A stretch of DNA of 24,740 bases from a virus (Duplodnaviria > Heunggongvirae > Uroviricota > Caudoviricetes), in IMG/VR virus record IMGVR_UViG_648276671_000014. The stretch is one strand, 5' to 3'. Numbering within the stretch: position 1 is the first letter of the stretch; the number at the start of each line of letters is the position of its first letter. Under the pieces are notes generated by a model. That model saw only the letters and a list, made by a program, of their open reading frames with translations. It had not been told where the DNA came from and ran no database searches. This document shows, piece by piece, positions 3,741-11,581 of the stretch. A program made the position numbers and the translations under genes.

Positions 3741-3974
3741 ATGCGTAATATTGAAACTCTCACGACTAAAACCGGACCGGATGATGCAGGGCTTAATATT
3801 TTACTGACAGAGGCTCGTCTGGAAGAACGCCGGGCAAGGGCTGAAGCAATGGCAGCTCGCCTTGATAGCCTGGCGTGTCATATCACATCCCGCCAGCTAA
3901 ACCACGTCGAAGCAGCAGAACTACTGCGTGTAACTGCTGAAGCAATCCAGAACGAAGCGCAGGAGATCCACTAA
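3741..3974 (+). CDS. Hypothetical early protein (77 aa from ATG 3741)
   Basis: CAGGAG Shine-Dalgarno 8 nt before ATG 3741; its stop overlaps the next start (TAATG). Confidence 0.6.
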   Translation: MRNIETLTTKTGPDDAGLNILLTEARLEERRARAEAMAARLDSLACHITSRQLNHVEAAELLRVTAEAIQNEAQEIH

Positions 3975-4201
3975 TGGCTGATGCAATGGATCTCGTACAG
4001 CAGCGAGTTGAAGAAGAACGCCAACGTCATATCCGTGCTGCCCGTGCCAAAACACCGGGCGTGTCCCGCGTGCTTTGCGTTGAGTGTGAAGCGCCAATTC
4101 CGCCAGCACGCCGTCGTGCCATTCCGGGTGTGCAGCTTTGCATTACCTGTCAGGAAATCGCAGAGCTGAAAGGCAAACATTACAACGGAGGTGCTGTATG
4201 A
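3974..4201 (+). CDS. TraR/DksA-family C4 zinc-finger protein (75 aa)
   Basis: CVEC...(16 aa)...CITC pattern near the C-terminus; translationally coupled on both sides. Confidence 0.75.
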   Translation: MADAMDLVQQRVEEERQRHIRAARAKTPGVSRVLCVECEAPIPPARRRAIPGVQLCITCQEIAELKGKHYNGGAV

Positions 4202-5055
4202 GCACCATCCTGAAATGGGCGGGAAATAAAACCGCCATTATGTCCGAACTGAAAAAACACCTTCCTGCTGGCCCGCGACTGGTTGAACCTTTCGCGGGTT
4301 CCTGTGCTGTGATGATGGCGACGGATTACCCCAGCTATCTGGTTGCTGATATTAATCCTGATTTAATCAACCTCTATAAAAAGATTGCCGCTGATTGCGA
4401 AGCGTTTATATCTCGTGCCAGAGCTTTATTTGAGGAAGCAAACAGGGAGGTGGCTTATTACAACATAAGGCAGGAGTTTAACTGCTCAACTGAAATTACT
4501 GACTTCATGAAAGCAGTATATTTCCTGTATCTCAATCGTCACGGTTACCGTGGGTTATGTCGCTATAACAAGAGCGGGCATTTCAACATTCCCTACGGTA
4601 ATTATAAAAATCCGTATTTCCCTGAAAAAGAAATTCGCGCATTTGCAGAGAAAGCCCAGCGAGCAACGTTTATCTGCGCCAGCTTTGATGAAACGCTGGC
4701 GATGCTGCAGGTGGGGGATGTGGTGTATTGCGATCCGCCTTATGACGGTACGTTTTCCGGCTATCACACTGACGGCTTCACTGAAGATGACCAGTATCAC
4801 CTGGCATCTGTTCTTGAATATCGATCATCAGAAGGTCATCCAGTCATTGTTTCTAACAGTGACACATCCCTGATCCGTTCGCTGTATCGAAATTTCACTC
4901 ACCACTACATCAAGGCAAAACGCAGCATCGGCGTGTCGGCTGGCGAGAGTAAATCTGCAACAGAAATCATTGCTGTTTCCGGGGCGCGCTGCTGGGTGGG
5001 ATTTGATCCTTCGTGTGGCGTGGATAGTTCTGCTGTGTACGAGGTGCGTATATGA
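4198..5055 (+). CDS. dam: Dam-like N6-adenine DNA methyltransferase (285 aa)
   Basis: N-terminal LKWAGNK...EPFAGS (AdoMet-binding) and catalytic DPPY motif; [14 protein letters not shown] segment resembles E. coli Dam; GGAG Shine-Dalgarno, start overlaps the upstream stop (ATGA). Confidence 0.85.
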
Positions 5056-7466
5056 GTCATGACGATATGAGCAACTCTAGCGGCTTTAACGAGGCCGCTG
5101 CAGCATTTTCATGGAACGGCCCGAAAAAGGCCATTAACCCTTATCTGGACCCGGCGGAAGTTGCGCCGGAGTCTGCACTTTCAAACCTGATCACTCTGTA
5201 CGCTGCCGATAATGAGCAGGAACAGCTGCGCCGCGATGCACTGAGTGAGCAGGTCTGGGAGCGTTATTTCTTTAATGAATCTCGTGATCCTGTCCAGCGC
5301 GAAATGGAGCAGGATAAGCTCATTAGCCGGGCAAAGCTGGCGCATGAACAGCAGCGTTTTAACCCGGACATGGTCATTCTGGCGGACGTCAGCGCCCAGC
5401 CCACCCATATTAGCAAGCCGCTGATGCAACGTATCGAATACTTCAGCAGCCTGGGCAGGCCAAAGGCTTATTCCCGCTATTTGCGTGAGACGATTAAGCC
5501 ATGTCTGGAGCGACTGGATTGTGTACGTGACAGTCAGCTGTCTGCTTCTTTCCGTTTTATGGCAAGCCATCAAGGGCTGGAGGGCCTGCTGATCCTGCCT
5601 GAAATGAGTCAGGATCAGGTGAAACGCCTGTCCACCCTGGTAGCTGCGCATATGAGCATGTGCCTTGATGCAGCTTGTGGCGATTTGTATGCCACCGATG
5701 ACGTTAAGCCAGAAGAAATCCGCAAGACATGGGAAAAGGTGGCGGCGGAAACCCTGCGTCTGGATGTCATCCCACCTGCGTTTGAGCAACTCCGTCGGAA
5801 AAGAAACCGCCGTAAACCCGTGCCCTATGAACTCATTCCGGGTTCGCTGGCGCGTATGTTGTGCGCCGACTGGTGGTATCGGAAATTATGGAAGATGCGT
5901 TGCGAATGGCGGGAAGAGCAGTTGCGTGCTGTCTGCCTGGTCAGCAAAAAAGCATCTCCCTATGTCAGCTATGAAGCCGTGATGCATAAACGTGAGCAGC
6001 GCCGTAAGTCGCTGGAGTTTTTCCGTTCTCATGAACTGGTGAACGAAGACGGCGACACGCTGGACATGGAGGATGTGGTAAACGCCAGCAGCAGCAACCC
6101 TGCGCATCGCCGCAATGAGATGATGGCCTGTGTTAAAGGTCTGGAGCTTATCGCGGAAATGCGCGGTGACTGCGCCGTTTTCTACACTATCACCTGTCCG
6201 TCACGTTTCCATTCCACGCTCAACAACGGCAGACCCAACCCAACCTGGACAAATGCGACGGTAAGACAAAGCAGCGATTATCTGGTCGGCATGTTTGCTG
6301 CATTTCGTAAGGCAATGCACAAAACCGGGTTGCGCTGGTATGGCGTACGGGTGGCTGAGCCGCACCATGACGGTACTGTGCACTGGCATCTCATGTGCTT
6401 CATGCGTAAAAAAGACCGCCGCGCCATCACTGCATTACTGCGTAAGTTTGCCATCCGTGTAGACCGCGAGGAGCTGGGCAACAATACGGGGCCACGCTTT
6501 AAGTCTGAGCTGATTAACCCGCGCAAAGGAACACCGACAAGCTACATCGCGAAATACATCAGTAAGAACATTGACGGGCGTGGTCTGGCTGGCGAGATCA
6601 GCAAGGAAACGGGTAAATCCCTGCGTGATAACGCCGAATACGTCAATGCCTGGGCGTCTCTGCATCGTGTTCAGCAGTTCCGCTTCTTTGGTATTCCGGG
6701 ACGTCAGGCTTACCGTGAACTTCGCTTGCTGGCTGGTCAGGCGGCAAGGCAACAGGGTGACAAAAAAGCAGGTGCGCCGATACTGGATGACCCGCGCCTT
6801 GATGCCATCCTGGCTGCTGCTGATGCTGGTTGTTTTGCCACCTACATCATGAAGCAGGGCGGCGTACTGGTTCCCCGTAAATATCACCTTATCAGAACCG
6901 CTTATGAAATCAACGAAGAGCCGACCGCCTATGGCGATCACGGCATTCGTATTTATGGCATCTGGTCACCCATTGCAGAGGGCAAGATCTGCACTCATGC
7001 AGTGAAGTGGAAAATGGTTCGTAAGGCCGTTGACGTTCAGGAGGCGGTAGCCGACCAGGGCGCTTGCGCCCCTTGGACTCGTGGCAATAACTGTCCCCTT
7101 GCTGAAAATTTGAACCAACAAGGGAAAGACAAATCAGCTGATGGGGATACCAGGACGGACATTACCCGCATGGATGACAAGGAGTTGCACGATTACCTGC
7201 ACAGTATGAGCAAAAAAGAGCGCCGGGAACTGGCTGCAAGGTTACGCCTGGTGAAACCGAAACGGCGTAAAGACTACAAACAGCGAATTACAGACCATCA
7301 GCGACAGCGGCTCGTCTATGAACTGAAGTCCAGAGGATTTGATGGCAGCGAGAAAGAGGTCGATTTACTCCTTCGCGGCGGCAGTATTCCGTCAGGAGCA
7401 GGCCTGCGTATCTTCTATCGGAACCAGCGTTTGCAGGAAGATGATAAGTGGCGAAACCTGTATTAA
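5052..7466 (+). CDS. A: Replication initiation endonuclease, gpA/RepA type (804 aa)
   Basis: Large early ORF in the expected position and size, with the tyrosine-containing [12 protein letters not shown] segment remembered from P2 A family proteins; start overlaps the dam stop. Confidence 0.9.
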
Positions 7467-7619: not shown

Positions 7620-7808
7620 ATGCAGGACTATTTTTTGGAGTCTTTGAAGCTCCAGCGCATTGATTTTTTTCTTAAGCTTGTAGCGGCTAGTGAGTGTAGT
7701 GATGAAGAGAAGGGGCTGGCTTTGCAGTGGGTTTCTGAACTGACAGATGAACTCATGGCAAAAATCAGAACCCACGAATACAACCGCTCAATGGATGTCA
7801 TCAGCTGA
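7620..7808 (+). CDS. tum: Tum-like antirepressor N-terminal module (62 aa)
   Basis: First ORF after the LexA-controlled promoter, GGAGG Shine-Dalgarno; position matches the 186 tum locus. Confidence 0.5.
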   Translation: MQDYFLESLKLQRIDFFLKLVAASECSDEEKGLALQWVSELTDELMAKIRTHEYNRSMDVIS

Positions 7809-7818
7809 GGTGACTTTT

Positions 7819-8052
7819 ATGCGCATTGAAATAATGATCGATAAAGAGCAGAAGATTAGCCAGTCTACCCTGGACGCCCTTGAATCCGAGCTTTACCGCA
7901 ATCTGCGCCCCCTATATCCAAAAACGGTAATTCGCATCCGCAAAGGTAGCTCTAACGGTGTGGAACTGACTGGACTGCAACTGGACGAAGAAAGGAAGCA
8001 AGTGATGAAAATTATGCAGAAGGTGTGGGAAGACGACAGCTGGCTGCATTAA
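7819..8052 (+). CDS. DinI-family protein (77 aa)
   Basis: MRIEIMIDKEQ...LDALESEL...VWEDDSW parallels remembered E. coli DinI (MRIEVTIAK...IDALAGEL...TWESADDW); GAGGTG Shine-Dalgarno 5 nt upstream. Confidence 0.8.
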   Translation: MRIEIMIDKEQKISQSTLDALESELYRNLRPLYPKTVIRIRKGSSNGVELTGLQLDEERKQVMKIMQKVWEDDSWLH

Positions 8053-8538: not shown

Positions 8539-8738
8539 TGGCAACATTACTTTTAGCAGTGATTTTGGTTAGTGGTTTTATTTATGTAAACCTATCACTT
8601 TCAACAAGATACCGATATAAGCGTTCCAACGGCTGGGACGCTTATTTTTTGTGGCTGCCTGGGGTATCGTTTTTTTCTCCTTGGCGGTTTTTTCACCTTT
8701 ATTTTGAACGTCAGCGGAGGGTTTCGTTGGCTGGCTAA
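8538..8738 (+). CDS. Small membrane ORF (66 aa), probably the N-terminal fragment of a frameshifted multi-pass membrane protein
   Basis: Translationally coupled ATG; hydrophobic helix LLLAVILVSGFIYVNL; reading frame ends just after three poly-T tracts. Confidence 0.4.
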   Translation: MATLLLAVILVSGFIYVNLSLSTRYRYKRSNGWDAYFLWLPGVSFFSPWRFFHLYFERQRRVSLAG

Positions 8739-8772
8739 TGCCTTGAATCTAACACCTGACAGTTTTAATGGC

Positions 8773-9378
8773 ATGTTGTCTTCATCGAAAGACAAACTTC
8801 AAAGAATAAATGAAATCAAACAGATAGCATGGGTTATGATTTCAATTGTTCTCGCTGCGATTTCAGGTTTTGGAAATAAGTTACGCACATCACGTGGAGA
8901 TCGTCGCTGGGATGCCTTAGCTAAAGCTGTGGGTAATAACGCTTTCGAATCATTACTCATGGAAGCGTCCGCAAGACAGTTTCCGATCATAGCAACTCTG
9001 TCGTCTCGCAAAATCTATGTTGGTCTTGTTACTTGTCCGGCGTTAGAAAACGGGCTTTCAGAACACCTTGAACTTCTCCCGATGTTAAGCGGATATCGGG
9101 ATAAAGATGATCTAACGATTAGTATCACGACTAACTATCACCAACATTATCTTGATAGTGGTGTGATAAGTGGAATGTCTCGGCTTAATATCGAAGATTT
9201 CCGTGTGCTCATACCAAAAGATGAGGTTGAAACAATTTCGTTTTTTGATACTGAGACATATAACAAATTTAAAGAAAATGAAGCCAGGGATAGAAAGAAC
9301 TGTCGAAAGATTGGTAGTAAAAGTGCATCTTCGCGCAGCAAGCGTGCAGCAGATGCTGAGTCAAATGATCGTGCATGA
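8773..9378 (+). CDS. Hypothetical protein (201 aa from ATG 8773; frame is open from 8590), probably the C-terminal continuation of the 8538 gene
   Basis: No Shine-Dalgarno before ATG 8773 or the upstream TTG 8704; frame stays open back into the 8538 ORF; hydrophobic segment IAWVMISIVLAAISGF then a soluble domain. Confidence 0.45.
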   Translation: MLSSSKDKLQRINEIKQIAWVMISIVLAAISGFGNKLRTSRGDRRWDALAKAVGNNAFESLLMEASARQFPIIATLSSRKIYVGLVTCPALENGLSEHLELLPMLSGYRDKDDLTISITTNYHQHYLDSGVISGMSRLNIEDFRVLIPKDEVETISFFDTETYNKFKENEARDRKNCRKIGSKSASSRSKRAADAESNDRA

Positions 9379-9426
9379 CTATGCTGCATGAGATCGCATG
9401 ATCGTTTGAGGATCGTTTTTGCTAAG

Positions 9427-9450
9427 GCCCGCCAGAACTGGCGGGCTTTT
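9427..9450 (+). terminator. Rho-independent terminator (GCCCGCCA-GAAC-TGGCGGGC then TTTT)
   Basis: Perfect 8-bp GC-rich stem followed by a T run, 49 bp after the operon stop. Confidence 0.6.
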
Positions 9451-9495
9451 GCGTAGATCATGCACCTGCATGAAAACTACTACATAAAGCGGGCA

Positions 9496-9514
9496 GGCGT
9501 GGCGGGGATACGAG
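9496..9514. other. Candidate cos cohesive-end site (GGCGTGGCGGGGATACGAG)
   Basis: First 13 nt match the remembered 186/P2 cohesive end (GGCG[T/A]GGCGGGGA...), followed by TGCGCG as in P2; lies between the early region and portal gene Q. Confidence 0.4.
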
Positions 9515-9538
9515 TGCGCGTAATAACTAATATTCCTA

Positions 9539-9567
9539 TTGACTTTCTATGATGCAATAGCTAATTT
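9539..9567 (+). promoter_or_regulatory. Putative promoter (-35 TTGACT, 17-nt spacer, -10 TAATTT) for the tRNA-like leader and HEPN-motif ORF
   Basis: Hexamers read directly; would start transcription at about 9574. Confidence 0.35.
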
Positions 9568-9573
9568 ATTTCT

Positions 9574-9657
9574 AGGCCTATAGTTTAATTTGGGAAAACG
9601 GCGGAGTATGATTTAGGTTATATATCCGTCATACCGGTTCGATTCCGGTTAGGCAAA
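9574..9657 (+). other. tRNA-like element (degenerate tRNA or tRNA mimic)
   Basis: Canonical T-arm ACCGG-TTCGATT-CCGGT (9633-9649), D-arm GTTT-AATTTGGGA-AAAC (9583-9599), U8-A9-like TA, 5 of 7 acceptor pairs; anticodon stem is not canonical and there is no CCA. Confidence 0.35.
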
Positions 9658-9685
9658 GAGCATTTTAGAGTGTTCTTTGCCTAAC
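9648..9685 (+). repeat. Perfect 12-bp inverted repeat (GTTAGGCAAAGA ... TCTTTGCCTAAC) forming a long hairpin ending 1 nt before the Shine-Dalgarno of the downstream ORF
   Basis: Arms at 9648-9659 and 9674-9685 are exact reverse complements; the loop can pair further with G-U pairs. Confidence 0.8.
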
Positions 9686-9697
9686 AGGATACGTAAA

Positions 9698-10447
9698 ATG
9701 ACTGATGACGAGATTAAAAATATTTTCCATGCTCAAACTGATAATGTTAGAGAGCTTGAGAAAGTCTGGAAACAAATAGTCAAAGAAATTAATACTGCAT
9801 TACGAACAGATAATGCAGTCCAAGTTGCACTTAAAACCAAAATGCTAGGTTTGGTTTTTTGCGCTCTTGCCGAAGCTCAATTTTCAAAGTTGATCCACAC
9901 GCCCGGTCAATTTTCCCCTAATGAAATAGAACAGATTAAATATGCAGCTTCATCTAATGTCTCAGATGGATGGTTAAAGTGCATAAATTTGGCTACGAGA
10001 CGACTATCGAAAGGCACAAAGCATAATCATGTTCCTAATGTTATTCAGGAGCTTGAAAGACTAGTTGATGATTTTATAAAAGCGCCAAGTTTAATTAGAA
10101 ATAAAATTGCGCATGGACAATGGGTTGTCGCTCTTAATAGAAAGAATACACATGTGAACTCAGAAATGACACATACTTTGCGTAATTTGACAATAGTGGA
10201 ATTAACAAAGTTTAAAGATGCTTTCACGAGAATGTCGCGAATAGTCGAAGATATTATTAAATCTCCTAATAAAGCTCATTTGCGTGATTATTGGCCGCAG
10301 CTTGAAGAGTTTAGAGCAAAGCAAAAGGAAATGGATAGTTGGACTCTTGCTGAAAAAGTCTTCCAATTAAAAAAGAAATATAATTACTCATCTAATATGA
10401 GATGTGAATCATGCGGTCAGTTACATGTTGATAGAAATAAACAATGA
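9698..10447 (+). CDS. HEPN-motif protein (249 aa), candidate RNase or abortive-infection effector
   Basis: AGGA Shine-Dalgarno 8 nt before ATG 9698; R134-N-K-I-A-H139 fits the HEPN Rx4-6H signature; AT-rich codon usage unlike the phage core. Confidence 0.65.
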   Translation: MTDDEIKNIFHAQTDNVRELEKVWKQIVKEINTALRTDNAVQVALKTKMLGLVFCALAEAQFSKLIHTPGQFSPNEIEQIKYAASSNVSDGWLKCINLATRRLSKGTKHNHVPNVIQELERLVDDFIKAPSLIRNKIAHGQWVVALNRKNTHVNSEMTHTLRNLTIVELTKFKDAFTRMSRIVEDIIKSPNKAHLRDYWPQLEEFRAKQKEMDSWTLAEKVFQLKKKYNYSSNMRCESCGQLHVDRNKQ

Positions 10448-10494
10448 TGATTATTATTTTGTGACACTTTCAATATTTTAATGCTTTATATATT

Positions 10495-10522
10495 AGCAAT
10501 GGTCATTAACATGACCATTGCT
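10495..10522. repeat. Perfect palindrome (AGCAATGGTCAT-TAAC-ATGACCATTGCT) between the HEPN-motif ORF and Q
   Basis: 12-bp arms are exact reverse complements with a 4-nt loop; no flanking T run. Confidence 0.8.
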
Positions 10523-10537
10523 ATGTGACCTAATATA

Positions 10538-11581
10538 TTAGTTATCTTCTGTCCTGAGCGAGTAAAAGCTAAAACGGAGAATTTCTTCACCAAGCCAGTT
10601 ATTTAGTTCCTGTAAACGTTTCTGCAGTGACATTAGTTCATTGCGTACAAAAACGCGACTAGCTTTCTCCACATCCCCAAATCCCCCAACATTATTTGGC
10701 ATTATCCCCATCATCTGTGGCGGCACGCGGTGCGCTGCCATCATGTCATCCCGACTCACGTTCTTGATATTAAGAAATTCATCCTTCGCCGCGACTTCTG
10801 ACAATGGGATGATCTGAAGCCCGTCCTTTTTGCCGTTAGGCGAGTACATAAACAGGTTGCGGAAGTTGCCTGGACCTTTGGCGCTTTTCATCGCGTTGCG
10901 GAGGTTGTTCACATCTTCCTGGTTCTGCGCGGCATCGGTCATGTACATGATGAAGCCTGCATGGCTGCCGTTGATGTAATACTTACGGCGGAACAGCGTG
11001 GCAGACTCGTTGAGCAGGGCGGATGGAATGGCAGAAAGATAGCCGGGCAGGCCGTAGATCTCCTGGTTGATGTCCGGTTCCATCAGATGAAAAATGCTGC
11101 CTTTCGTGAACTGATACGGCTGGGTTGTCATACCGTATTGCACAAACCAGTAGGTATCCAGGTCTAACCCGCGTCGGGTGTATTTTGCCAGCGCAGGCTC
11201 AAGGGCGATAACTTCACCGAATCGGTTCGTGCGTTTCTCCAGGTAGGCGTTACCAAATACCAGATAGTCCTGCACAAAACGCGAAAAAGCCTGCTGGCTG
11301 AGCAGCGGATGAGGGATATAGGTACTGGTCAGAATGTTGCACTTTACTGCAATCGGGGAACTGTGATGCACGGCGGCGCGGAAGGTGCGCGCCAGTCCGT
11401 TAAAGCTGACGGGCGGCTCATACCAACGGTCCATCTGTACGCATTCCACATAGTCCAGCAGTTCACGGCGGTCCAGAACAGGAACGGGATCGCCGAAGCT
11501 GAATGCTTCGGCTGTAGTTTGACTTTTAAGCTGGATCTGTTTCGTCGCCGCAGCTCGGTTCTTCTTACTCTTTCCCATCAA
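10538..11581 (-). CDS. Q: Portal protein gpQ (347 aa)
   Basis: Size and position immediately after cos and upstream of P as in P2/186; stop overlaps P (ATGA). Confidence 0.9.
   Translation of the reverse strand: MMGKSKKNRAAATKQIQLKSQTTAEAFSFGDPVPVLDRRELLDYVECVQMDRWYEPPVSFNGLARTFRAAVHHSSPIAVKCNILTSTYIPHPLLSQQAFSRFVQDYLVFGNAYLEKRTNRFGEVIALEPALAKYTRRGLDLDTYWFVQYGMTTQPYQFTKGSIFHLMEPDINQEIYGLPGYLSAIPSALLNESATLFRRKYYINGSHAGFIMYMTDAAQNQEDVNNLRNAMKSAKGPGNFRNLFMYSPNGKKDGLQIIPLSEVAAKDEFLNIKNVSRDDMMAAHRVPPQMMGIMPNNVGGFGDVEKASRVFVRNELMSLQKRLQELNNWLGEEILRFSFYSLRTEDN

What the first reader, a model, noticed from the sequence alone, without database searches (positions are those of the whole stretch)
9539..10447. 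Candidate defence module between cos and the portal gene: promoter, tRNA-like leader and HEPN-motif ORF
P2/186 phages normally have almost nothing between cos and Q. Here about 1 kb of AT-rich DNA carries its own sigma70-like promoter, an 84-nt tRNA-like element, a very stable hairpin and a 249-aa ORF with an R-N-K-I-A-H (Rx4-6H) motif typical of HEPN RNases. Several HEPN-class nucleases (for example the PrrC/RloC anticodon nucleases) target tRNA, so a HEPN protein directly downstream of a tRNA-like RNA suggests a toxin with a tRNA-mimic regulator, decoy or substrate sensor. I cannot tell from sequence alone whether this architecture is already described.
Basis: partly seen in the sequence, partly recalled or inferred. 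Interest (0 to 1): 0.8.

Follow-up and report, generated by a model that had tools for sequence, protein, structure and literature searches.

The report
tRNA-shaped leader RNA with HEPN-like gene
A P2-type prophage carries, next to its packaging site, a small two-part module: a tRNA-shaped RNA joined to a gene for a likely RNA-cutting protein. The same pair recurs in about 90 loci across many bacterial phyla and phages and matches no catalogued system, so it is probably a new RNA-controlled toxin or anti-phage module.

Summary
Window 9539-10447 contains a promoter, a tRNA-like RNA (9576-9654), a 15-19 bp hairpin (9650-9683, extendable to 9644-9689), an SD/ATG (9686/9698) and a 249-aa ORF with R134-N-K-I-A-H139-G-Q-W.

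The decisive new result is comparative. The protein belongs to a small uncharacterised family (436 representatives among 1.84 billion; PHROG 12663, unknown function). A tRNA-like element lies 2-64 nt upstream of the gene in 76 of 78 loci, and in all 16 independent viral loci that retain upstream DNA, at protein identities down to about 20%.

All four cloverleaf stems covary, and the tRNA tertiary-contact nucleotides are conserved. The "anticodon" arm, however, ends in a 3-4 nt loop, and the acceptor stem has only 5 bp. No partner protein gene is conserved, and RNA subtype tracks protein clade rather than host taxonomy.

HEPN membership is unproven. The RNxxAH motif is conserved, but Pfam hits are sub-threshold and fold searches found no HEPN.

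The module is rare, AT-rich cargo in the known P2 gpA-gpQ defence hotspot.

Best reading (about 0.45): an AbiF/type III-like toxin-antitoxin or abortive-infection module, in which a tRNA-mimic RNA restrains a tRNA-directed RNase. No Rfam, Pfam, PADLOC or literature entry describes it.

The parts
9496..9514 (+). P2-type cos core GGCGTGGCGGGGATACGAG. This is context, not part of the module; the module starts about 25 nt downstream.
   Evidence: Read directly from the sequence. The cos region 9400-9538 is 92-98% identical to E. coli, Klebsiella and Salmonella P2-like phages, and similarity stops at about 9538. The same motif precedes the module in L081-L085.
9539..9567 (+). Putative sigma-70 promoter: -35 TTGACT at 9539-9544, -10 GCTAAT/TAATTT at 9560-9567. 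The predicted start site is at about 9574-9576, the first nucleotides of the tRNA-like fold.
   Evidence: Read from the sequence; not flagged by the consensus scan. Conserved in L081-L083. Homologous loci have TTGACA-17-TAnAAT ending 6-8 nt before the acceptor strand. The start site is inferred.
9576..9654 (+). tRNA-derived, non-decoding structured RNA. 5-bp acceptor-like stem (9576-9580 with 9650-9654), D arm 9583-9599, expanded hairpin in the anticodon position 9600-9630, T arm 9633-9649.
   Evidence: Covariance model R1 scores 63.5 bits. Covariation was counted on a structure-blind MAFFT alignment. U8, G10, A14, G18, G19, C25, G53, T54, T55, C56, A58 and C61 are conserved. ARAGORN gives no call.
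9644..9689 (+). Long hairpin whose 5' arm reuses the 3' acceptor strand and the T-stem 3' strand. Its 3' arm runs into the SD. It is therefore an alternative fold that excludes the cloverleaf. Core 9650-9683.
   Evidence: In 49 of 49 type-A leaders the hairpin state is more stable than the closed cloverleaf, by a median of 7.2 kcal/mol. The hairpin extends into the T stem by a mean of 3.4 pairs, against 0.9 in shuffles.
9686..9700 (+). Shine-Dalgarno AGGA (9686-9689) and start codon ATG (9698-9700).
   Evidence: Read from the sequence. The N-terminus aligns with homologues from this ATG.
9698..10447 (+). 249-aa all-alpha protein of an uncharacterised family. Signature motif R134-N-K-I-A-H139-G-Q-W, encoded at 10097-10123. 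Putative HEPN-like RNase.
   Evidence: AF2 pLDDT 90.8. PHROG 12663, unknown function. 436 representatives among 1.84 billion proteins.
10494..10523 (.). Perfect 13-bp palindrome between the module's stop codon and the stop codon of portal gene Q. Possible bidirectional transcript end.
   Evidence: I4. No T-run follows it; the function is inferred.

Best explanation
A self-contained, horizontally mobile RNA-protein module sits as cargo in the cos-proximal hotspot of a P2-like prophage.

One promoter drives a transcript that begins with a tRNA-derived, L-shape-competent but non-decoding RNA. This is followed by a long hairpin and then the gene for an RNxxAHGQW (HEPN-like) protein.

Proposed mechanism, by analogy with AbiF/RCd22 and type III toxin-antitoxin systems:
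- The protein is an RNase whose natural substrates are tRNAs.
- The cis-encoded tRNA mimic binds it as a pseudo-substrate or antitoxin. The mimic has the tRNA elbow and T arm, but no anticodon loop, and its acceptor end is capped by a hairpin.
- The mimic also tunes expression, through competition between the cloverleaf and the hairpin that abuts or sequesters the SD.
- Phage infection, or loss of the element, lowers the RNA:protein ratio. This frees the RNase and halts translation (abortive infection or addiction).

Shown: the anatomy, the obligate RNA-gene pairing, the covariation, RNA-protein co-evolution, mobility, and the hotspot location.

Inferred: RNase activity, the tRNA target, the antitoxin role, and the defence phenotype.
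For: - Pairing: the RNA lies upstream of the gene in 76 of 78 loci, 2-64 nt from the start codon, and in 16 of 16 viral loci not used to build the model, including relatives at 19-29% identity.
- tRNA fold: acceptor stem 90.7% paired with all 5 pairs covarying; T stem 100% paired. Covariation score 0.58, against 0.21 in shuffles and at most 0.25 when slid. Tertiary-contact nucleotides are conserved. The Rfam tRNA model passes its gathering score in 8 of 19 relatives.
- Non-decoding: the loop is 3-4 nt in 56 of 76 elements, and ARAGORN's 'anticodons' are random.
- Distinct from real tRNAs: genuine tRNAs in the same loci score at most 27 bits, against 37-75 bits for the elements.
- No conserved partner protein. 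Neighbours are integrases, Abi_C, AAA_21, DUF3800 and RelA_SpoT.
- RNA subtype B maps to one pure protein clade drawn from six or more phyla.
- The motif R134/N135/H139 is conserved down to 12% identity, with faint hits to five HEPN Pfam families centred on it.
- Architecture parallels AbiF_Cd/RCd22: promoter, about 100-nt structured RNA, hairpin, RBS, HEPN toxin, with the RNA neutralising the toxin (bioRxiv 10.1101/2025.04.15.648962).
- HEPN RNases do cut tRNA (bioRxiv 10.64898/2025.12.03.690598; PMC11586414).
- The location is the published P2 gpA-gpQ defence hotspot (PMC9122126). Sister phages carry other cargo in that slot.
- In three Bacteroidota loci the hairpin is followed by a T-run, like the terminator in type III and AbiF systems.
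Against: - 37 of 48 members give a weak hit to an unrelated ferritin-like family, IMEF_Flp.
- There are no antitoxin repeats as in ToxIN, and neither the abiF RNA motif nor an Abi_2 domain is present.
- In most loci, including the window, the hairpin lacks a U-tract. Production of a separate small RNA is therefore unproven.
- No toxicity, binding or phage data exist.
- The obligate pairing would equally fit a purely cis-regulatory leader.
Confidence: 0.45

Rival explanations
1. Purely cis-acting tRNA-mimic leader. The RNA is only an expression platform. The protein, or a cellular tRNA-binding factor, binds the tRNA-like fold of its own mRNA, as ThrRS does on the thrS operator. This shifts the balance between the cloverleaf and the extended hairpin and so sets translation or transcript stability. 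The RNA has no antitoxin activity in trans.
For: - The RNA is at the extreme 5' end of the mRNA, with the promoter 6-8 nt upstream.
- The two folds are mutually exclusive, and both are maintained by covariation.
- In the window, in alphaproteobacterial loci, and in L042 and L076, the extended hairpin pairs with the SD.
- Most hairpins have no U-tract, so a separate small RNA is not evident.
Against: - SD sequestration is not universal. The typical extension is 3 nt and stops short of GGAG.
- Type-B leaders have no hairpin at all, yet keep the tRNA fold.
- Autoregulation alone does not explain why a rare mobile gene keeps a full L-shape-competent tRNA mimic across phyla.
Confidence: 0.25
2. The tRNA mimic is a sensor or activator (guard) rather than an inhibitor. 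Phage factors that attack, modify or sequester tRNAs would also hit the mimic. Examples are anticodon-independent tRNA nucleases, tRNA-repair or tRNA-modifying enzymes, and host shut-off RNases. Its cleavage or remodelling would switch on translation or activity of the effector.
For: - Only the features read by shape-specific tRNA-binding proteins are conserved (elbow, T loop, acceptor/T stack). The anticodon arm is free to vary.
- The design is bistable.
- tRNAs are recognised targets and battlegrounds in phage defence (PMC12409363 and PMC12851939, listed).
Against: There is no direct evidence and no known precedent for a tRNA-shaped guard RNA. The hypothesis does not by itself explain why the protein would need the RNA in every locus unless the protein is toxic.
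Confidence: 0.12
3. The protein is not a nuclease or toxin, and the module is not a defence system. It could be, for example, a tRNA- or RNA-binding lysogenic-conversion factor, or a regulator whose mRNA happens to carry a tRNA-derived stabilising 5' structure.
For: - No profile or fold evidence of any catalytic family.
- PHROG 12663 is 'unknown function'.
- A structured, base-paired 5' end would protect the mRNA.
Against: - The invariant R-N...H-G-Q-W, together with N16 and E59, looks catalytic.
- The context is mobile or defence-island-like.
- A simple 5' stabiliser would not need conserved tRNA tertiary nucleotides.
Confidence: 0.13
4. The element is a decayed host tRNA gene or an integration-site (att) remnant that merely lies beside the ORF.
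For: - ARAGORN and Rfam call some relatives as tRNA.
- Integrases occur near 8 loci.
- L067 lies beside a 5S rRNA-tRNA cluster.
Against: - Orientation is fixed and the distance to the gene is 2-64 nt in 76 of 78 loci.
- It has its own promoter.
- All stems covary.
- It lacks an anticodon loop.
- RNA type follows protein clade, not host.
- It is present inside phage genomes next to cos.
Confidence: 0.03

Closest known systems
AbiF / abiF-motif ncRNA (RCd22) systems: Abi_2 HEPN toxin with an upstream structured RNA antitoxin; proposed Cas13 ancestor
   Same: - One promoter, then a roughly 100-nt structured RNA, a hairpin, an RBS and a single gene for a HEPN-type protein.
- Prophage-borne.
- The RNA and the gene are always co-located.
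   Different: - The RNA here is a tRNA-derived cloverleaf, not the abiF motif RF03085 (no Rfam hit).
- The protein has no Abi_2 domain.
- The hairpin usually lacks a terminator U-tract.
- Nothing has been tested experimentally.
Type III toxin-antitoxin systems (ToxIN, CptIN, TenpIN)
   Same: An RNA encoded directly upstream of an endoribonuclease-like gene, separated from it by a hairpin. Mobile, with an abortive-infection context.
   Different: - A single structured unit, not tandem 34-45-nt repeats.
- The protein is unrelated to ToxN-type toxins by any search run here.
HEPN RNases acting on tRNA (HepT of HepT/MntA, Cas13, PrrC/RloC-type anticodon nucleases)
   Same: A conserved R-N-x-x-A-H motif. 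tRNA is a documented HEPN substrate.
   Different: - No significant sequence or fold match to any of them.
- No MNT partner, ABC-ATPase domain or crRNA.
- Regulation would be by an RNA mimic rather than by a protein or a guide.
tRNA mimicry in mRNA leaders (thrS operator; T-box elbow recognition)
   Same: A leader RNA that imitates tRNA features and is positioned next to the SD/start codon.
   Different: This is a whole cloverleaf with elbow nucleotides but no anticodon. It is attached to a mobile accessory gene, not to an aminoacyl-tRNA synthetase or amino-acid operon.
Cargo of the P2 gpA-gpQ cos-proximal defence hotspot (old, tin and many validated systems; Rousset et al. 2022)
   Same: Same slot, AT-rich, and replaced by unrelated cargo in sister phages.
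   Different: This gene family is absent from PADLOC, from 5,426 complete E. coli genomes and from 50,697 phage records.

Membership tests
HEPN superfamily RNase | Conserved Rx4-6H motif, often R-N/D/H-x-x-x-H | tested here: met
   R134 and N135 are invariant, and A138 and H139 are at least 90% conserved, in 50 sequences reaching down to 12% identity. Distant viral relatives keep RNK[IL]AHGQW.
HEPN superfamily RNase | Significant profile match to a curated HEPN family | tested here: not met
   Only sub-threshold hits: AbiU2 0.0023, MAE_28990 0.034-0.047, Swt1 0.044-0.083, RiboL-PSP 0.026. All are below the gathering score. NCBIfam and PADLOC give nothing.
HEPN superfamily RNase | Four-helix up-down HEPN fold resembling solved HEPN structures | tested here: inconclusive
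HEPN superfamily RNase | Metal-independent RNase activity that depends on the R and H residues | not testable with these tools
   Needs biochemistry.
Canonical tRNA (Rfam RF00005) | Cloverleaf with covarying stems and conserved tertiary nucleotides (U8, A14, G18, G19, T54, Psi55, C56, A58) | tested here: met
Canonical tRNA (Rfam RF00005) | 7-nt anticodon loop with a consistent anticodon | tested here: not met
   The loop is 3-4 nt in 56 of 76 elements. ARAGORN's 'anticodons' are random or irregular. In the window, RNAfold folds this arm (9600-9630) as a 13-pair stem capped by a 4-nt loop.
Canonical tRNA (Rfam RF00005) | 7-bp acceptor stem with a free NCCA 3' end | tested here: not met
   Only 5 pairs are supported. 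The outer two positions are unpaired in 61 of 66 and 50 of 67 sequences. The 3' strand runs straight into a hairpin or a C-rich tail.
Canonical tRNA (Rfam RF00005) | Reaches the Rfam gathering score or an ARAGORN call | tested here: not met
   Window: no ARAGORN call, and the best Rfam clan hit is 24 bits and partial. However, 8 of 19 relatives do pass RF00005, which supports descent from a tRNA.
Type III toxin-antitoxin | RNA gene directly upstream of the toxin gene, same strand, with a hairpin or terminator between them | tested here: met
Type III toxin-antitoxin | Antitoxin made of tandem direct repeats processed by the toxin | tested here: not met
   No tandem repeats in 9380-10600. There is a single cloverleaf unit.
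Type III toxin-antitoxin | RNA binds and neutralises the toxin | not testable with these tools
   Needs co-expression, EMSA or a structure.
AbiF / abiF-motif system | Abi_2 (AbiD/F) protein domain and abiF RNA motif RF03085 | tested here: not met
   No Abi_2 hit. No RF03085 hit at E <= 10.
P2 cos-proximal defence-hotspot cargo | Lies between gpA and gpQ next to cos, and varies between related phages | tested here: met
   gpA 5052-7466, cos 9496-9514, Q 10538-11581. Similarity to relatives stops at about 9538. Other cargo is found there in Cartapus, a Klebsiella phage and Fels-2. Hotspot definition from PMC9122126.
P2 cos-proximal defence-hotspot cargo | Confers phage resistance | not testable with these tools
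   Needs a phage challenge.

The most novel reading that the evidence does not exclude
The module is a new class of immune or addiction switch built on a tRNA-shaped riboregulator. The cloverleaf is a decoy or sensor read by shape-specific tRNA-binding factors: the cognate RNase, host enzymes or phage enzymes. Its competition with an expression-blocking hairpin converts the cell's tRNA-handling state during infection into release of a tRNA-directed effector whose fold is not yet linked to any solved family.
Probability: 0.2. Interest if true: 0.9.

Novelty: new variant of a known kind. Interest (0 to 1): 0.8.

Why it matters
If the reading is right, three things follow.

First, it adds a third kind of RNA partner for HEPN-type effectors. 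The known ones are CRISPR RNAs (Cas13) and the abiF motif (AbiF). This one would be a domesticated tRNA that serves as inhibitor, decoy or sensor.

Second, it links two active topics: tRNA as a target of bacterial immunity, and RNA antitoxins.

Third, it defines a new structured-RNA family (absent from Rfam 15) and gives a function to an orphan protein family (PHROG 12663). The family is spread across at least eight phyla and into phages.

On the practical side, ARAGORN and the Rfam tRNA model call many of these elements as tRNAs with arbitrary anticodons, including 'suppressor' ones. They are therefore a likely source of false tRNA annotations. The system is small (about 1 kb) and can be tested directly in E. 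coli.

Tried and rejected
- ARAGORN on the window: no tRNA.
- Rfam at E <= 10 on 9300-10600: only a partial T-arm match to tmRNA and noise.
- Pfam, PADLOC and NCBIfam on the protein, on 48 family members and on 19 distant members: nothing above threshold.
- PDB profile searches with two alignments: nothing.
- hhalign of the family profile against the Abi_C neighbour in L002 and against the Cartapus DUF4145 protein in the same slot: no relationship.
- Search for a conserved partner gene by all-against-all BLAST of the flanks: none.
- Search for orphan copies of the RNA in viral contigs with a specific 27-nt pattern: only the two known contigs.
- Covariance-model search of the equivalent slot in Cartapus, a Klebsiella phage and Fels-2: no tRNA-like element.
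- Tandem repeats of ToxI type: none.
- The idea that the hairpin is an intrinsic terminator: rejected for the window and for most loci, which have no U-tract. It holds only for three Bacteroidota loci.
- The idea that the element is a host tRNA or att remnant: rejected.
- Literature searches for tRNA-like plus HEPN, antitoxin, Abi or anti-phage terms: no paper describes such a system. The library lacks most subscription journals.
Full report
**Setting.** The window is a P2-like (Peduoviridae) prophage. It carries an integrase, a gpA replication gene (5052-7466), AT-rich cargo, a P2-type cos core (GGCGTGGCGGGGATACGAG, 9496-9514), the finding itself, then portal Q (10538-11581, minus strand) and terminase P. 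Q and P are 95-96% identical to Escherichia phage Cartapus and to Klebsiella P2-like phages. DNA similarity to E. coli genomes and to phage records covers only 9400 to about 9538, and nothing matches 9539-10530. That segment has GC 0.30-0.37, against 0.52-0.62 in the phage core.

**The observation.** All the reported parts exist.
- The ORF runs 9698-10447 (249 aa), with SD AGGA at 9686-9689. R134-N-K-I-A-H139-G-Q-W is encoded at 10097-10123.
- Upstream, 9576-9654 can be drawn as a cloverleaf. It has a 5-bp acceptor-like stem (9576-9580 with 9650-9654), a D arm (9583-9599), a 31-nt hairpin where the anticodon arm should be (9600-9630), and a canonical T arm (9633-9649, loop TTCGATT).
- ARAGORN does not call it. 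Rfam aligns only the T arm, to a tmRNA model.
- A 15-bp hairpin (9650-9683) starts at the first nucleotide after the T stem. The repeat finder extends it to 19-nt arms at 9644-9662 and 9671-9689, which takes in the T-stem 3' strand and the SD.
- The leader's folding energy has z = -5.8.

**The protein family.** The database search returned 160 relatives, all 'hypothetical', about 235 aa long, from Vibrio, Edwardsiella, Variovorax and many metagenomes. An exhaustive profile search found only 436 cluster representatives among 1.84 billion. The family is therefore small and rare. It is absent from 5,426 complete E. coli genomes and from 50,697 phage records, and present in 2 of 72,556 plasmids. 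PHROGs lists it as phrog_12663, unknown function. Across 50 sequences reaching down to 12% identity, R134, N135, G140 and Q141 are invariant. N16, T47, E59, W92, A138, H139 and W142 are at least 90% conserved.

**The key result: an obligate RNA partner.** I fetched 80 genomic loci that encode relatives.
- A simple motif scan showed GGTTCGATTCC or a one-base variant 25-90 nt upstream of nearly every gene.
- A structure-blind MAFFT alignment of 67 leaders supports a cloverleaf. The acceptor stem is 90.7% paired and all five pairs covary, with up to six pair types per position. The T stem is 100% paired. The D and anticodon-position stems covary despite some misalignment.
- The covariation score is 0.58, against 0.21 in column shuffles and at most 0.25 when partners are slid.
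- The invariant or near-invariant unpaired positions are exactly the tRNA tertiary-contact nucleotides: U8, G10, A14, G18, G19, C25, G53, T54, T55, C56, A58, C61. The RNA should therefore adopt the L-shape.
- A covariance model built from this alignment finds the element 2-64 nt upstream of the start codon in 76 of 78 loci, at 37-75 bits in all but three low-scoring or truncated loci (L078, L080, L035; 14-28 bits). The two exceptions are a contig with only 89 nt of upstream DNA and a truncated gene.
- Genuine tRNAs in the same loci score at most 27 bits.
- As an independent test, 17 viral contigs that encode relatives were fetched afterwards. The model finds the element upstream in all 16 that have upstream DNA, including proteins only 19-29% identical to the window's.

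**What kind of RNA it is.** It derives from tRNA but does not decode.
- Rfam's tRNA model passes its own gathering score on 8 of 19 relatives, up to 56 bits.
- ARAGORN calls about half of them, with arbitrary 'anticodons': Lys, Met, Tyr, stop, or 2- and 4-base.
- The anticodon-position arm is a 4-9 bp stem capped by a 3-4 nt loop in 56 of 76 cases.
- The acceptor stem has 5 bp, not 7.
- There is no free NCCA end.
- Sigma-70 promoters (TTGACA-17-TAnAAT) end 6-8 nt before the first acceptor nucleotide in many loci. The RNA therefore begins the primary transcript. This is inferred from sequence.

**Two RNA subtypes.**
- Type A, which includes the window, has a 15-17 bp hairpin that starts at the first nucleotide after the T stem and so reuses the 3' acceptor strand.
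- Type B has a G5:C5 acceptor stem and no hairpin, and the start codon follows within about 25 nt.
- Type B maps to a single pure protein clade of 16 members. They come from Bacteroidota, Cyanobacteria, Deinococcota, Myxococcota and several proteobacterial orders. RNA and protein thus travel and evolve together, independently of the host.

**Competing folds in type A.**
- The 5' acceptor strand and the 3' end of the hairpin are both complementary to the same five nucleotides, and both pairings are maintained.
- By nearest-neighbour energies, the full hairpin beats the closed cloverleaf in 49 of 49 leaders, by a median of 7.2 kcal/mol.
- The hairpin tends to extend further into the T-stem 3' strand: a mean of 3.4 contiguous pairs, against 0.9 for shuffled flanks, with CCGGG/CCNGG and CCTGC/GCAGG covarying.
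- In the window and several other lineages this extension pairs with the SD.
- In three Bacteroidota loci the hairpin is followed by a T-run, like an intrinsic terminator.
- The leader therefore looks like a switch between a tRNA-shaped state and a hairpin state. What flips it is unknown.

**Context.**
- No protein-coding neighbour is conserved. The only family shared by the flanks is tyrosine integrases, in 8 loci. Other neighbours include Abi_C, AAA_21, DUF3800 and RelA_SpoT proteins.
- The enterobacterial subclade (window, L081-L085; 74-98% identity) always sits immediately after a P2-type cos.
- The gpA-gpQ cos-proximal region is a published hotspot of anti-phage systems in P2-like phages (PMC9122126).
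- In the same cos-to-portal slot, Cartapus carries a DUF4145 protein, a Klebsiella phage a 580-aa protein, and Fels-2 a 565-aa protein. None of these has a tRNA-like element.

**Mechanism.** The closest documented architecture is AbiF_Cd/RCd22. In that system a SigA promoter drives a roughly 100-nt structured RNA, then a terminator hairpin, an RBS and an Abi_2 HEPN toxin. The RNA represses in cis and neutralises the toxin in trans by direct binding (bioRxiv 10.1101/2025.04.15.648962). HEPN RNases are known to cleave tRNA. I therefore propose a type III-like toxin-antitoxin or abortive-infection module. In it, a tRNA mimic with the elbow and T arm, but no anticodon loop and a capped acceptor end, occupies the tRNA-binding site of a tRNA-directed RNase and also tunes its expression. 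Confidence is about 0.45. Every functional step (RNase activity, tRNA target, neutralisation, phage phenotype) is inferred. The rivals are a purely cis-regulatory tRNA-mimic leader, a sensor or guard role for the RNA, a non-nuclease protein, and a decayed tRNA or att remnant. The last is effectively excluded.

**Novelty.** The RNA is not in Rfam 15. The protein has no Pfam, NCBIfam or PADLOC family. Five full-text searches found no description of a tRNA-like RNA paired with a HEPN-type or Abi gene. The caveat is that subscription-only papers are not searched. I class it as a new variant of a known kind (RNA-controlled HEPN-type toxin). There is a real chance, about 0.2, that the tRNA-shaped switch works by a principle not yet described.

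Noticed in passing
window 8704-9378 (+): A 224-aa ORF just upstream of cos. It has no Pfam or PADLOC hit but is a strong member of PHROG 3630 (unknown function). It is followed by a terminator-like hairpin at 9421-9452. It may be a second, independent cargo gene of the gpA-gpQ hotspot.
   Followed up: partly
window 7747-8052 (+): A DinI-like ORF (Pfam 1.3e-22) lies in the same hotspot, as in Fels-2 and L081.
   Followed up: partly
window 10494-10523: A perfect 13-bp palindrome (TAGCAATGGTCAT/ATGACCATTGCTA) lies between the convergent stop codons of the module and of portal Q. It has no T-run. It may be a bidirectional transcript end or a protein-binding site.
   Followed up: no
L104 (Escherichia phage Cartapus NC_070909) 162-860: The closest sister phage has a DUF4145 protein in the same cos-to-portal slot, without any tRNA-like leader. 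hhalign finds no relationship to the family studied here.
   Followed up: yes
L023, L039, L041, L057, L071, L076 and others, about 3850-3990: ARAGORN and the Rfam tRNA model call many of these leaders as tRNAs with arbitrary anticodons, including two 'stop/suppressor' (tta) calls. They are a likely source of spurious tRNA annotations in genomes.
   Followed up: partly
L053, L059, L061 (Bacteroidota), directly after the leader hairpin: In these loci the hairpin is followed by a run of 5-8 T, like an intrinsic terminator. In these lineages the RNA may therefore be released as a separate small RNA.
   Followed up: partly
Family alignment A1, residues about 171-229: 37 of 48 members give weak sub-threshold hits to IMEF_Flp, the encapsulin ferritin-like cargo family (best E 1.9e-5; also TIGR04536 and PDB 6n63). 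This is probably a helical coincidence, but it is unexplained.
   Followed up: no
L002 3551-3640 (-): An Rfam C4 antisense RNA (P1/P7-type immunity RNA, 55.8 bits) lies about 240 nt upstream of the module in Kerstersia gyiorum. An Abi_C protein is encoded just downstream. This indicates a prophage or defence-island context.
   Followed up: no
window 9600-9630, compared with L083 and with other loci: The enterobacterial subclade has an expanded, AU-rich 31-nt arm in the anticodon position, where other loci have 11-20 nt. This arm is the most divergent part between the window and L083, while the rest of the leader is nearly identical.
   Followed up: partly
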